A stretch of DNA of 64,000 nt, from assembly GCA_963782055.1 (NCBI GenBank), contig CAWAIF010000003.1:2208001-2272000 (forward strand), written 5' to 3'. Source of the DNA: an uncultured delta proteobacterium (lineage in GTDB: Bacteria > Myxococcota_A > Polyangia > Polyangiales > Polyangiaceae). The stretch's first letter is position 1. The number at the start of each line of letters is the position of its first letter. Shown here one piece after another: positions 767-63,063 of the stretch. Position numbers and translations under genes: made by a program. Below the pieces are notes generated by a model. The model searched no databases, had not been told where the DNA came from, and was given only the letters and a program-made list of their open reading frames with translations.

Positions 767-3700
767 ATGAAGATCGCGCAGGCAGGCAGGCAGGCAGGCA
801 GGCAGGCAGGCAGGGGTAGGAGCACATGGTTGGCAGTAGCGGGAACGCTCCCCTTCGTGGGCTACGCGGCCATCGGTTGCGGGAGCCATTCCGAGGCCCT
901 CGGCTCACAGCGCAGCGCCATAGGGCTCGGCGCGCAGCCAGACACGAGTGACCCCTTCAACGCCAACATCGTGGTCCAGTTGTTCACGAACGCCGTCGGA
1001 TGCACCGGGACGCTGATCACGCCAACCGCCGTGCTGACAGCCCGCCACTGCCTGGACGGTGGCGAGGGCATGCCCGTGGGGATGGGCGACACTCCCACCG
1101 TGGGCTTCGGGCCGCACGGCTCGGACCTGACCTTGATGGGCACCGATGGCCATCCGGCGCGTCACGGGGGCCCCGGGCCGGTGACGCAGGCGGCTGGCGA
1201 CCTCGCCGTGGTGGTTCTGGATCGCATTTACCTGAACCACTGGAGCGCAGTCGCACCGACCCTCGCAGAGGCGCCCTGGACCAAGGTGCTCGAGGTCAAC
1301 TGGCACCGGCCCCTGACGCAGGAGGACTCGACCGGCTACTACGCGGCAGGTTGGGGCGGGCCCGGGAAACTATCCACGGACCGGCAGGTGGCGCCGGTAC
1401 CTTCCATCGGCGTCGATGCGGACATTCTCGACTACTTCTACACGAACGGTGACGACGCGGTGGTTCAACATGGGGACTCCGGCGGCCCCCTCTTCGGTCT
1501 CGATGCACAGGGGAAGCGGGTCCAGCTCGGCGTCGCGTCGATGTCTGGCGGCGCAGGTCATGACTTCCACGACATCTGGGTGAACCTCCGCGACAACGGC
1601 TTCCACAACCTGAACTGGCTGGCCGGAGTGATGGTGGATCACCGTCACGACGCCCAGCCGAACTGGCTCAAGCAACACCCGTGGCCCGCGACCACCGCGG
1701 AGCCCTCGCGGTGGATCGGTGAGGCAGACTACGCCGGCCCGTGCGATCAGGCGCACGACGCCGACTGCGATCACTGGTACGAGGACGATCCGACGACCCA
1801 CCAGGACCACGACAACTGCCCCGGGGTCTTCAACCCGGACCAGTGGGACGAGGACGACAATGGTGTCGGCGACGCGTGCGAGGCCGGCGCGTGCGCGTGC
1901 GATCCGCTGGGCCACGACGCCGACGGCGATCGGGTGTGCGAGGTCTACTGCCCCGGCGCGACCAAGGGCCCGATCGACAACTGCCCGACCGTCAAGAACG
2001 CCGACCAGGCGAACTGCAACGCCGCCTTCGAGCACGCGAACCTCCCCACCAAGCCGCCGCTGGGCGACGCGTGCGATCCCATCCCGTGCCCGATGCCGGC
2101 CACGGTGCACTCGCTCACCGCCGATCCGAGCGCACCAGGCTGCGCCGGCTACGGGAAGAACGGCTGCAAGCCCAACGCACCCCCGTACGAGAACACCATG
2201 CAGTGCTGCGGGGCGTCGACGAACGACCGCGTGCACACGGTCACGATCGGCGCCCACCGGATCAACGCGCCGGAGAAGCTGCCGCTGCCGTCGGTCACGC
2301 CGTTCGAGGTGAACGTCGGCGTGGCCAACACGGTGATGCGGTTCTGTCAGAGCGACATCTCGCAGAACATCCGATGTGATGCGAACAACGTGTTGAACGA
2401 CAGCGAGCTGTCGTTCGACGTCCCGTCCACATCCTCGCACCCGTGGCATCGGATCACCTCCCGGCGCATCGCAGGGAACCTCCCCACCCTGCCGGCCTAC
2501 GATCTGGACCTCCAGGGCCTGCAGTACGGGGCGTCCGTCTTCGACGTCCGCTGGCTCTACGCCGACGATCTGGGCACGTGGCTCGCCAACCCCAACGATC
2601 CGGTGATCCCGGGCTGTACCACGGCGACCGACCCCGCGTGCCTGGACGGCACCTTCTGGGTCAACGGGGATACCCTCGTCGGGAAGTCCCCGAACGATAC
2701 CGTCAACGGCCAGGTGGTGGGGTTGCACATCGACGCATTCACTGCGGCCAACCTCACCGGGAGCCTCGCCGACGGCCTCACGCCCATCCATCCTCAGGCC
2801 ACGCTGCTCTGGTGCCCGATCCCTTCTCTCGTGCCGCCGCTGGCGGACACCGGCGGGCCGCTCGGCCACCACGCCGGGCTGATGATCTGGCCTCCCCACG
2901 GCCTGAGCTCCTCCACGCTCGACCAGGGGATCGCCGGCGCCTCTCGCGTCCTCCTCGCGGAGGCCAGCTCCGGCGTCATGGCCGCGCTCCAGGGCGACGG
3001 GACGGCCATCCTCGCCCAGGATCTGACGACGGACACCGGCACCGTGGACTGCGGCGGCGATCAGGTGATGGGCACGGTGCGCCAGATCTCCTTCTCCGGG
3101 GAATCCACCTGGCTGAGCGCGGTGGAGCCGGCGGCGGCCATCCCCGGGCTCACCGCCGACGCGGTCGCCCTCTCCCTCGACGGCACCACGCTTGCGGCGC
3201 TGGCGCAGACCGACGCGGTCACCGGTCAGCTCGGCGCGAGGCCGATCGGGCCGACGGCGGGAGGGGCAGCCGACGCCCAGGGTCCAGTCCCCCGCACGGG
3301 CTACCTGGCGGCGTACTCGCGGAGCGCAGGCGGAGTCTTCGTCGCCGGCGGCACGGCGGCGGCCGACGAAGCCTCGCTGCACGACGTCTGGTTCCGCGCG
3401 CCGGGCGGCGCCTGGACCGACGTGACCCCGCGCGCGACGGGCGGCGGCAACTGCCTGCTCTGCCTGCAGACGCTCGGCCTCGGCGATCTCCGGGCGATCA
3501 CCTACTCCTACGACGACCGGAAGATGTGGATGGTCGACCAGGTGAAGGCGGGCAAGCTGCGCTGGGTGCGGCTGCTGCGCGCCAGCCCCGGCGGGCTGCT
3601 CGAGATGGTGGCGGCCTGGCCGCGCCTCGGCCTGGCGGAGAGCTACTTCCTCTCCGTCGACCACGACGGCTCGGTGCTGCTGTCCCTCGCGCGCGCGAAG

Positions 3701-60518: not shown

Positions 60519-63063
60519 ATGAAGATCGTGCAGGCAGGCAGGCAGGCAGAGCCATGATGTTCCGAGCCCGCTCGCGTACGTCGCGGTAGTGCTGCTGGCG
60601 ATCATGGCGACCCTGGCGTACGGTGGATGCACCGACCCGCCCGGCGCCGGGCAGCTCGTGCTCGACATCGACCGGCTGGCGCTTCGCCCGGGCGTGACGC
60701 AGATCTCCTTCACGGCGAGCAAGCTGCTCCTCCTTTACGGGCAGCCTCCGGCTCCCCCGGCGCACAAGGACGTCGACTGCGCCTCCGGCCAGTCCGTCAC
60801 CTTCGATCCCGCCGCCGTCACGGTGGACCTGACGCGGACCGGGCGGAGCTACGTCGCCACCGTCAACGCGCCGCAGGGAAACCTGCGCGAGGTCTGGCTC
60901 GTCGTCTCCGATGGCACCGTCACCGAGAATGGCCTCGTGAGGCCGCTCCACACCAGCCTCAACTGCGCGTCGGGCGAGAGCGGGGTCATCCGGCTCACCT
61001 CCGTGGACCCGAACGGTGTCCAGATCCACGGCGGCGACGCCACCGAGATCGCCGCGCAGCTCGACCCGAACACCGACATCGACCACAAGGATCCCGACAA
61101 CGGGGGCGGCAACGGAAACGGCAAGGGCGGCAATCCGGACGCCAACGGCGATCTGCACGGCGGGAAGTGGTCGATCGCCGCGTCGCTGCCCTTCGTGCTG
61201 GTGACGATGCCGGAAGGCATCGTCGACGGGCAGATCATCGTTCGCTTCAAGGACGGTACGAGCGCGGGCGACATCCAGACCGCCATCGCGGCGCAGTCCA
61301 TGACGGTGCTGCGGGCGTGGGCGCCCACGAACTACTACGTGCTTCAGGCGCCGAACGGCGCGGACGAGCGGCCGATCCTGCAGTACTACGCCGGCCTGGG
61401 GAGCGTGCAGTACACCTCGCCCAACACGTACGTGGGCACCGCGGGGAACGGGGACTTCGACCCGGCGTTCTCCGGTCAGTCGCAGTGGCCGCAGGTCGGC
61501 TTGAACGAGCTCTGCGTCAACGGCACCAGCCCGAACTGCAAGGGCGTCGTCGATCCGGCTTCCGGCTGGGCTGTCACCACCGGCTCCGACAGGAGCGTCG
61601 TCGCCGTCGTCGACGATGGCTTCGATCTCACCAACCCCGACGTCTACCCCAACCTCTTCATCAATACCGACGAGGTGCCGCAGGAGATCGTCGACCGGGT
61701 CGGCGACGTGAACCACGACAACGTCGTCGACTGGCACGACCTGGACGCCGACGCCGACGGCGTTCTGACGTTCGCCGACCTGGATGCCACGAACGAGTTC
61801 TGCGCAGGCACGCACGTCGTCAACGGCAAGTTCGTCGCGAACTGCAACGTGCTGGGCCCCAACCTGGTGTGCTCGACGACGCCGTGCACCCCTCTCGCGC
61901 TGGTGACCGGCGCGGGAAGACCCGACCCGAACCGCAACACCTGCGGCGGCTCCCCGCAGAAGCTCAACGGCAGCTGGGAGGACGGCGTCGACGGGCACGG
62001 AGGCGCGACGTGCAACGGCTTCGTCAACGACGTGGTCGGGTGGAATTTCAACTGCAGCGAGAACGGAAACCATATCGTTGTCGACGGAGTGTCAGGTTGC
62101 AATCTCGCCGCTCCCAGCTTCGTGTGCCTGGCGTCCCCGTGTCCCTCCCAGAACATCACGCACGGTACCACCGTGGCGTCCATCATTGGGGCCGCGGGCG
62201 CCAACGGCGTTGGGGGCGCGGGAGTCGACTGGACGGTGAGGCTACTGCCCGTGCAGCTCCTTCGGCCCGCTGCGAACGTGGGGCCTCAGGGAGCGGCGCG
62301 GGGCCTACGTGATTCCGTCTACGCAGCCGCGCTCTACGCCGGGGACGTCATGGGCGCGGATGTCGTCAACCTCAGTCTCCAGAGCTACGGTGCTCTGGAG
62401 GGAGGGTTCGGCGTCGGTTCGCTCCTCGGCCCCGCCGGATGCCCTGGCGCGCCTCCCCCGGTCATATTCCCGAAGGCCAAGCAGCAACTCTTTCAGGACT
62501 TTGCCGAGGAGATCGAGGGGGAGCTCTCGGACCTGCAGACGCTCTTGCAGGCCCGCGGCACGCTCGCGGTCGTGGCCGCAGGCAACTGCCAGGCCGACCT
62601 CGACGCCGGCTCCGTGGTGGTCGACTACCCGGGGTCGATGGTCGGTGACAACGTCCTCACCGTGGCGTCGGTCAATCCCTCCGACCATCTCTCCTCGTTC
62701 TCCAACTACGGAACGAGCACGATCGACCTCGCGGCGCCGGGCGAGTCGTTCGAGGTCTCCACCGTCGACGAGGCAGGGCAATACGCAGGGGTGACCTCGG
62801 ACGTCTCGGTCTGTGGCACGGGAGGCCAGGCGTGCCGCGGGACGTCCTTCTCGGCGCCGATGGTCGCGGGCGCCGCGGCGCTCGTGCTGACCGCAGCCAA
62901 CGGGTCGCTCGACGGCGAGGCCTGTCGGATCGCGGACCGGATCCTGCGAAACGCGGACACGCCGGCCACCGGTCTCGCGAGCGGCGTGCATGGCGGTCGA
63001 CGCCTGAATGTGAAGAATGCGCTCCTCGACAGCGTGGCGGATCCCGTCCGGTCGTGTCCATGA
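60519..63063 (+). CDS. S8 subtilisin-like protease lipoprotein; frameshifted at a 5' repeat as assembled
   Basis: VVDDG / HGTTVAS / AAGN / GTSFSAP; ATG at 60519 with RBS stops after 12 codons, while the signal ...LAYGGC is in another frame. Confidence 0.85.
60530..60549 (+). repeat. (GCAG)5 tetranucleotide repeat after the ATG; out of frame
   Basis: Counted directly: 20 nt. Confidence 0.92.

What the first reader, a model, noticed from the sequence alone, without database searches (positions are those of the whole stretch)
767..63063. Three unrelated secreted proteases each gated by a non-triplet repeat after the start codon: candidate phase-variable protease repertoire
Seen: the S1 trypsin gene has (GCAG)9 at 778-813 and is in frame. 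The S8 gene has (GCAG)5 at 60530-60549; its ATG is 70 nt from the long frame, so it stops after 12 codons, while 4 or 7 units give MKIVQAGRQ...SHDVPSPLAYVAVVLLAIMATLAYGGC. The S53 gene has (GCCTC)7 at 57821-57855; its ATG is 115 nt from the long frame, and 5 or 8 units give MSPRL...ALVVFALLGAC. In all three the tract lies between the ATG and the hydrophobic core of a lipoprotein signal. Established: slipped-strand tetra/pentanucleotide tracts at 5' ends are ON/OFF switches in contingency loci of Haemophilus and Neisseria. Inference: this organism stochastically switches surface proteases of three catalytic families (currently ON/OFF/OFF). I do not know of this being described for myxobacteria-like predators.
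Basis: partly seen in the sequence, partly recalled or inferred. Interest (0 to 1): 0.9.

Follow-up and report, generated by a model that had tools for sequence, protein, structure and literature searches.

The report
Repeat switches on myxobacterial surface proteins
In this soil myxobacterium, about twenty genes for membrane-anchored secreted proteins, among them six proteases, begin with short DNA repeats whose length decides whether the gene can be read, which looks like the random on/off switching known mainly from human pathogens.

Summary
In detail: the tracts, frames and intact catalytic residues are as described. The three proteases belong to a genome-wide set. 16 of 22 perfect 4/5/7-mer tracts lie within 15 nt of an SD+ATG, against 5.7% by chance (p 6e-16); triplet repeats show no enrichment. 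21 lipoprotein genes carry such a tract and 18 are out of frame; six are proteases and six an unknown family. None has a bypass start giving a charged signal. One short-read contig matches the S8 tract exactly. Homologues in at least 11 of 89 sampled genera carry different repeat units at the same place, in or out of frame. That points to repeated gain rather than error or decay, although S53 homologues elsewhere are ungated (0 of 25). Best reading: slipped-strand phase variation of a surface-lipoprotein repertoire (0.82). Switching itself and length variation at one locus within a population were not observed. The mechanism is known from Neisseria and Haemophilus; my searches found no report for myxobacteria. 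The scan noted one similar single poly-C locus before, in Rhodothermales.

The parts
755..769 (+). SD (GAGGAGGG) and ATG of the S1 gene; leader shared with the S8 gene (20 nt identical) and with unrelated gene C3:4430945 (41 nt, 85%)
778..814 (+). (GCAG)9 tract, in frame (ON in the assembly), encodes the QAGR-repeat n-region
767..3919 (+). S1 trypsin-like lipoprotein, 1050 aa, lipobox Cys38 at 878, His/Asp/Ser motifs intact, TSP3-like Cys-rich middle
57858..57872 (-). SD and ATG of the S53 gene; gtgATG(TCGCC)n leader end also at C3:2523240 (S53) and C3:6865718 (unrelated)
57819..57857 (-). (TCGCC)7.8 tract, out of frame; the only source of n-region Arg; one more unit opens the frame
54404..57817 (-). 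S53 sedolisin-like lipoprotein body, 1137 aa open frame, no in-frame start before the lipobox Cys; Glu/Asp/Ser motifs intact
60508..60521 (+). SD (GGGAGGG) and ATG of the S8 gene
60530..60549 (+). (GCAG)5 tract, out of frame; matched with no difference by a 296-bp short-read contig; one unit fewer opens the frame
60550..63063 (+). S8 subtilase lipoprotein body, 837 aa open frame, lipobox Cys at 60628, Asp/His/Ser motifs intact

Best explanation
The tracts are slipped-strand translational ON/OFF switches (SSR phase variation). Shown: each tract lies within the first ~30 codons behind an SD+ATG; its unit length is not a multiple of three and is stop-free, so every OFF state is one unit from ON; the long body has no other start that gives a charged lipoprotein signal. 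Inferred: replication slippage adds or removes units at high frequency, so cells in a clone display different subsets of about 21 accessory outer-envelope lipoproteins (6 proteases, 6 members of an unknown ~600-aa family, 3 of a second unknown family, 6 others). Inferred further: promoter-SD-ATG-tract blocks are copied between unrelated gene bodies, and Polyangiaceae lineages have gained such tracts repeatedly. The likeliest selective driver is phage or neighbour recognition of surface proteins, or bet-hedging over prey; that part is untested.
For: Enrichment is 16 of 22 against a 5.7% null, and 11 of 208 for triplet-multiple repeats. 21 lipoprotein-type loci, 18 out of frame, against about 83 putative frameshift junctions in 6388 coding segments genome-wide. 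No alternative in-frame start with SD and K/R in 21 of 21. The OFF bodies in the window are long and catalytically intact. Short-read contig X1 spans the S8 tract with 0 differences. Near-identical duplicates differ in tract length: C8 vs C10 at 98.6% protein identity, (AGCA)3 vs 6.75, G10 vs G11. The closest full-length S8 homologue P0001 begins MRVRLASPRLA, the TCGCC-repeat peptide, in frame. Family-X homologues: 7 of 13 readable starts carry a tract, with 4 unit types. Loci found with the S1 query: 9 of 20 readable starts carry one. Background is 34 of 916 lipoprotein-like genes in this genome.
Against: No variation in tract length at one locus was seen: only contigs from 4 runs of one study were available, the S53 tract was skipped, and X1 may be the source sample. 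No expression data. 0 of 25 readable loci from the S53 searches are gated, and only 1 of 62 S8/S1/S53 homologues from protein searches shows a tract peptide. Homopolymer lengths in this assembly are uncertain: a frame change at 15 of 179 G/C 7-mers against 17 of 1703 random sites, so the 8 homopolymer loci are weaker. Some related accessory genes are broken without any tract (C3:6354386, C3:6509882, L140, L126), and some gated genes are short or have a second break (C3:2530399, 84576, 4909853). Only 3 of 21 are in frame, below the one-third expected for a neutral switch (p 0.046). MutS and MutL are intact, so there is no general mutator.
Confidence: 0.82

Rival explanations
1. One-way decay. 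Tracts arose in signal-coding DNA, where indels are tolerated, and out-of-frame lengths are just the first step of pseudogenisation of accessory genes in IS-rich islands, with no selected reversible switching.
For: 18 of 21 are out of frame. The loci cluster (8 gaps under 60 kb against 3.3 expected), and the window holds several IS elements. There are IS-broken or truncated copies and tract-free frameshifts in related genes. N-terminal SSR tolerance is general (PMC3315296, passages).
Against: Only non-triplet units are enriched at starts. OFF bodies of 837-1260 aa have no second lesion and the two in the window keep catalytic motifs. At least 13 different units recur at this position, several in frame, across 11 or more genera.
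Confidence: 0.08
2. Assembly artefact. The out-of-frame lengths are consensus errors of a long-read assembly, and the genes are normally in frame with a repetitive n-region.
For: The contig sizes imply a long-read assembly (inference). There is an excess of frame changes at homopolymers.
Against: A short-read contig gives the same (GCAG)5. Background frameshifts are about 1.3%. 12 of 13 4/5/7-mer lipoprotein loci are out. Fragmented assemblies of relatives (G191, G211, G140, G034, G406) also show out-of-frame tracts. Error cannot explain why the tracts sit at starts.
Confidence: 0.04
3. Recoding or leader control. Protein is made without DNA change, through ribosomal frameshifting or transcriptional slippage at the tract, or through coupling to a downstream start as in a leader-peptide switch.
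For: 13 of 18 OFF loci need the same +1 shift. Three other tract loci (C2:528948, C3:1548319, C3:6009783) and several response-regulator genes in G071 have the tract in a short upstream ORF with a separate downstream start, resembling the S. gallolyticus pil1 leader (PMC3894217, abstract).
Against: There is no shared slippery motif across many different units. The three window mRNA leaders fold no better than shuffles (z +0.65 to +2.66). There is no downstream start with a charged n-region in the 21 lipoprotein loci.
Confidence: 0.06

Closest known systems
Neisseria opa (CTCTT)n leader-peptide phase variation; pilC poly-G
   Same: A non-triplet repeat in the signal-coding 5' end of a multi-copy, divergent surface-protein family; frameshift by slipped-strand mispairing (PMC3960869 passage; PMC13190605 passage on pilC).
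   Different: Free-living 7.6-Mb, 72% GC soil organism. Lipoprotein signals. Many different units in one genome, even within one protein family. Unrelated families gated. Switching not measured here.
Haemophilus influenzae tetranucleotide contingency loci
   Same: Long tetra-, penta- and heptanucleotide tracts are rare in the genome and sit in ORFs of surface-related genes (PMC2651432 passages; 12 putative loci in PMC11868660 passage).
   Different: The targets here are secreted proteases and unknown lipoproteins, not LPS, iron-uptake or methyltransferase genes; the host is not an animal pathogen.
Streptococcus gallolyticus pil1 leader-peptide (GCAGA)n attenuation switch
   Same: A tract in a short upstream ORF ahead of a separately started gene, as at three non-window loci (PMC3894217 abstract).
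   Different: Does not apply to the three window proteases, whose tracts are in the coding frame; no intrinsic terminator was found at the three leader-type loci.
Myxococcus xanthus yellow/tan phase variation
   Same: Heritable population heterogeneity in a myxobacterium, affecting proteases among other genes (PMC4880591 and PMC3986340 passages).
   Different: Described as a transcriptome-wide colony switch; the words 'slipped' and 'repeat' do not occur in PMC3986340. Here each gene has its own DNA-level switch.

Membership tests
SSR-mediated translational phase variation (contingency loci) | Perfect tandem repeat with a unit not divisible by three at the 5' end of an ORF | tested here: met
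SSR-mediated translational phase variation (contingency loci) | Unit number sets the frame of an otherwise intact gene | tested here: met
   frames; long bodies, catalytic motifs
SSR-mediated translational phase variation (contingency loci) | No alternative start bypasses the tract | tested here: met
   0 of 21 loci have an in-frame start with SD and a K/R n-region; S1 has an SD-preceded TTG without a charged residue; sequence test only
SSR-mediated translational phase variation (contingency loci) | Tracts over-represented at gene starts relative to chance | tested here: met
SSR-mediated translational phase variation (contingency loci) | Tract length polymorphic at the same locus within or between populations | tested here: inconclusive
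   One contig with the same length; duplicates within the genome differ in length; no conspecific genome or raw reads
SSR-mediated translational phase variation (contingency loci) | High-frequency reversible ON/OFF expression | not testable with these tools
   needs culture, reporters or raw reads
SSR-mediated translational phase variation (contingency loci) | Products surface-exposed | tested here: inconclusive
   Lipoprotein signals by pattern, and homologues have ordinary lipoprotein signals; final location not shown
pil1-type leader-peptide attenuation | Tract in a separate leader ORF followed by an intrinsic terminator | tested here: not met
   The window tracts are in the coding frame. 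For the three leader-type loci elsewhere no terminator-like site was found, but the scan is weak in GC-rich DNA.
Peptidase families S1, S8, S53 | Domain match and catalytic residues | tested here: met
TULIP (BPI/CETP) fold, for unknown family X | Structural match of the middle domain | tested here: inconclusive
   AF2 pLDDT 87; best Z 7.4, rmsd 4.8, 185 aligned to CETP, with other TULIP proteins at Z 6-6.6; no Foldseek match at E<=0.001

The most novel reading that the evidence does not exclude
Polyangiaceae predators run a pathogen-style combinatorial phasome of surface lipoproteins, built from portable promoter-RBS-ATG-repeat cassettes that recombine at the tract onto unrelated gene bodies. 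This makes newly acquired proteases and a diversified, possibly lipid-binding lipoprotein family switchable in one step, so each cell of a swarm carries its own surface and enzyme set.
Probability: 0.35. Interest if true: 0.85.

Novelty: new variant of a known kind. Interest (0 to 1): 0.68.

Why it matters
SSR phase variation has been studied mostly in host-adapted pathogens, and a 2025 review names soil bacteria as a knowledge gap (PMC11868660 passage). About 21 gated genes in one soil myxobacterium, with repeated gain across its family, would show that the strategy is used without an immune system, and would point to the proteins under that pressure: secreted proteases and an uncharacterised lipoprotein family. 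It also has a practical side. Gene callers drop the signal peptide of OFF genes (P0008 starts after it), and short-read assemblies break at long tracts, so such systems are easily missed in metagenomes.

Tried and rejected
Read laying: four low-depth soil runs, contigs only; it could not show length mixtures and skipped the S53 tract. Metagenome pattern scan: 2 stretches, both ahead of methyltransferase-like frames, no conspecific strain. S8 orthologues were not found in 162 family genomes or in 5 genus genomes (two genomes are in both sets). The S1 query in the genus gave only C-terminal pieces. The pentamer pattern gave no convincing gated gene outside G000 among the 6 of 7 hit genomes read, and two family hits for ATG(TCGCC)n lacked SD and signal and were dropped. 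Most of the 22 cross-phylum hits had no reversed-pattern control and are not counted as support. A mismatch-repair defect was rejected. Stimulatory RNA structure was rejected. No Rfam match; no sigma-70 promoter or terminator in window 57700-60700. Family X: no Pfam, NCBIfam, PDB-sequence or Atlas hit; the single-sequence fold failed; no clear known fold. Literature searches that found no SSR phase variation in myxobacteria: (open-access library only).
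Full report
OBSERVATION. S1 is in frame (1050 aa). S8 stops after 12 codons and opens with 4, 7 or 10 units. S53 stops after 44 codons and opens with 2, 5, 8 or 11 units. 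Pfam gives Trypsin, Peptidase_S8 with a prodomain, and Pro-kuma_activ. His/Asp/Ser, Asp/His/Ser and Glu/Asp/Ser motifs (recalled consensus) are intact.

GENOME. G000 is 7.58 Mb in 3 contigs, 72% GC, 97% complete. It is probably Polyangiaceae; this is an inference from source names of S53 homologues and from 11-16 Mb genomes in the same family. MutS and MutL are present in open frames.

GENOME-WIDE PATTERN. Of 22 perfect 4-, 5- or 7-mer tracts with at least 4 units, 16 have SD+ATG within 15 nt upstream, against 5.7% of 40,000 random positions (p 6e-16). Two more have an ATG there but failed the strict SD test. Repeats of 3, 6 or 9 nt score 11 of 208. I curated these by hand together with G/C homopolymers and kept 21 loci where the tract lies in the first ~30 codons of a lipoprotein gene: 13 with 4/5/7-mer units (1 in frame) and 8 homopolymers (2 in frame). 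They comprise 2 S1, all 3 S53 paralogues, 1 S8, 6 paralogues of an unknown ~600-aa family (family X, 22-38% identical to the first), 3 of a second unknown family, a tectonin-repeat protein and 5 others. Set aside were three tracts in short upstream ORFs before a separately started gene, a LuxR-type regulator with a second frameshift, an in-frame extension of an FGE-like gene, a cassette with no body, and three short uncertain loci. In none of the 21 is there an in-frame start with an SD that would give a K/R-bearing signal, and all nine units tested are stop-free. Other trypsin-like or TSP3-type lipoprotein genes, including window 16819, have ordinary starts.

ERROR AND DECAY. My rough detector finds 83 putative frameshift junctions in 6388 coding segments, against 18 of 21 here. 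A 296-bp short-read contig of run X1 spans the S8 tract with no difference. X1 may be the source sample, so this checks sequencing, not biology; the S53 tract was skipped as a repeat, and contigs drop rare variants. Against my reading: frame changes are more common at G/C 6- and 7-mers (45 of 1136, 15 of 179) than at random sites (17 of 1703), so homopolymer lengths may be off by one. Two related accessory genes are frameshifted without a tract. Three in frame of 21 is slightly below one-third (p 0.046).

LENGTH CHANGE AND CASSETTE SHARING INSIDE THE GENOME. A 98.6% identical gene pair has C8 and C10. A 1025-bp block (94%) ending at the poly-G tract precedes two bodies with no BLAST match to each other (G10, G11), and a promoterless copy of one body begins just after the tract position. 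A 483-bp block (93%) ends at (AGCA)3 and (AGCA)6.75. An S53 gene and a family-X gene share 156 bp of leader (77%). The window S1 leader is shared with a family-X gene (41 nt) and with S8 (20 nt). That leaders move by recombination at the tract is an inference.

RELATIVES. ATG+(GCAG)4 occurs in 10 of 382 family genomes, the reversed control in 1; not all 10 are real gates. Family X was found in 16 of 382 genomes, 21 distinct genes. Of 13 with a readable start, 7 carry a tract (GCCA, G8, G7, G11 and a heptamer out of frame; TCGCC x4 and x8 in frame), 1 a degenerate tract and 5 none, two of those broken otherwise. The S1 query gave 23 loci in 211 genomes; 2 were cut and 1 ambiguous. Of the other 20, 9 carry a tract: three match the protease domain (CT x10 in, GCAGATC in, G10 out) and six share only the Cys-rich segment (all out; one has just 3 units). 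G071 has two trypsin lipoproteins behind GCAC tracts, both in frame, one broken by an insertion. The closest full-length S8 homologue starts with the TCGCC peptide in frame. Together these span at least 11 of the 89 genera sampled and at least 13 units; background in G000 is 34 of 916 lipoprotein-like genes at looser thresholds. Against generality: 0 of 25 readable loci from the S53 searches are gated (27 examined), 1 of 62 protease homologues from protein searches shows a tract peptide, and most family genomes had no match to any pattern tried. Kin are not independent, but different units at the same position argue for separate gains.

FAMILY X. There are 319 cluster representatives at E<=0.001, with no Pfam, NCBIfam or PDB sequence match. 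The AlphaFold model from 92 sequences is confident (pLDDT 87). Its middle domain resembles TULIP lipid-binding tubes weakly (Z 7.4, rmsd 4.8, 185 aligned), below the level at which a match can be trusted.

MECHANISM. Shown: tract position, frame dependence, no bypass start, enrichment, recurrence. From established knowledge: non-triplet repeats in leader-coding DNA switch by slipped-strand mispairing (opa, about 1e-3 per generation, PMC3960869 passage). Inferred: the same happens here, giving cell-to-cell combinations of surface lipoproteins; phage or neighbour recognition or prey bet-hedging drives it. Not shown: switching, expression, localisation.

LITERATURE. I read passages of PMC13190605, PMC4880591, PMC11868660, PMC3315296, PMC3986340, PMC2651432 and PMC3960869, and the abstract and outline of PMC3894217; everything else was search listings. 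No supplements were read; genome-wide SSR surveys may list myxobacterial tracts there. Searches found no report of SSR phase variation in myxobacteria, in an open-access library only. One earlier scan note describes a single similar poly-C locus in Rhodothermales (unchecked).

VERDICT. The feature is real and very probably a phase-variable surface-lipoprotein repertoire, of which the three proteases are a subset. The mechanism is known. The host type, the scale, the mixture of units and the leader sharing are new as far as I could search.

Noticed in passing
window 32913-32923 and 26113-32880 (-): A C11 run lies upstream of the SD of a 2.2-kaa RHS-core/teneurin-like lipoprotein gene, just after a TTGACG hexamer; a paralogue at C3:6337946 has C12 and a third (C3:~1502950) only C5. 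Possible promoter-spacer switch.
   Followed up: partly
G000:C3:3913248, 6915284, 778896, 789601: G10-G12 runs between -35-like and -10-like hexamers upstream of response-regulator genes; candidate transcriptional phase variation.
   Followed up: partly
L024:449-468, L015:320-337, L021:3784-3811; L059, L073, L078, L072: Tracts in short upstream ORFs ahead of separately started genes, including several response regulators in G071 and an in-frame fused homologue in G193; possible translational-coupling switch.
   Followed up: partly
window 43369-48502 (+): A DRT4/DRT6-like reverse transcriptase next to a DISARM DrmD-like SNF2 helicase, followed by a transposase: a defence island between the gated genes.
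   Followed up: no
window 23197-25332 and 48984-51119 (-); 40398-42715 (+): Two copies of a 711-aa Transposase_29 gene and an IS21-type transposase/IstB pair.
   Followed up: no
window about 5370-5640 (+): A 94% identical copy of the last 79 codons of the S1 protease, 1.5 kb downstream of it.
   Followed up: no
L035, L036: (GCAG)4 and (GCAG)7 right after ATG ahead of frames that look like DNA methyltransferases in metagenome contigs (identity recalled from motifs, not scanned); possible phasevarion-type switches.
   Followed up: no
L037, L039, L044, L050: ATG+(GCAG)5-6 out of frame ahead of signal- or prepilin-like N-termini in Terriglobales, Clavibacter, a Deltaproteobacteria MAG and Synergistaceae; no control run.
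   Followed up: no
L174 (G005:C92:1-40): A same-genus contig ends exactly in a G17 run 13 nt after SD+ATG, consistent with assemblies breaking at such tracts.
   Followed up: no
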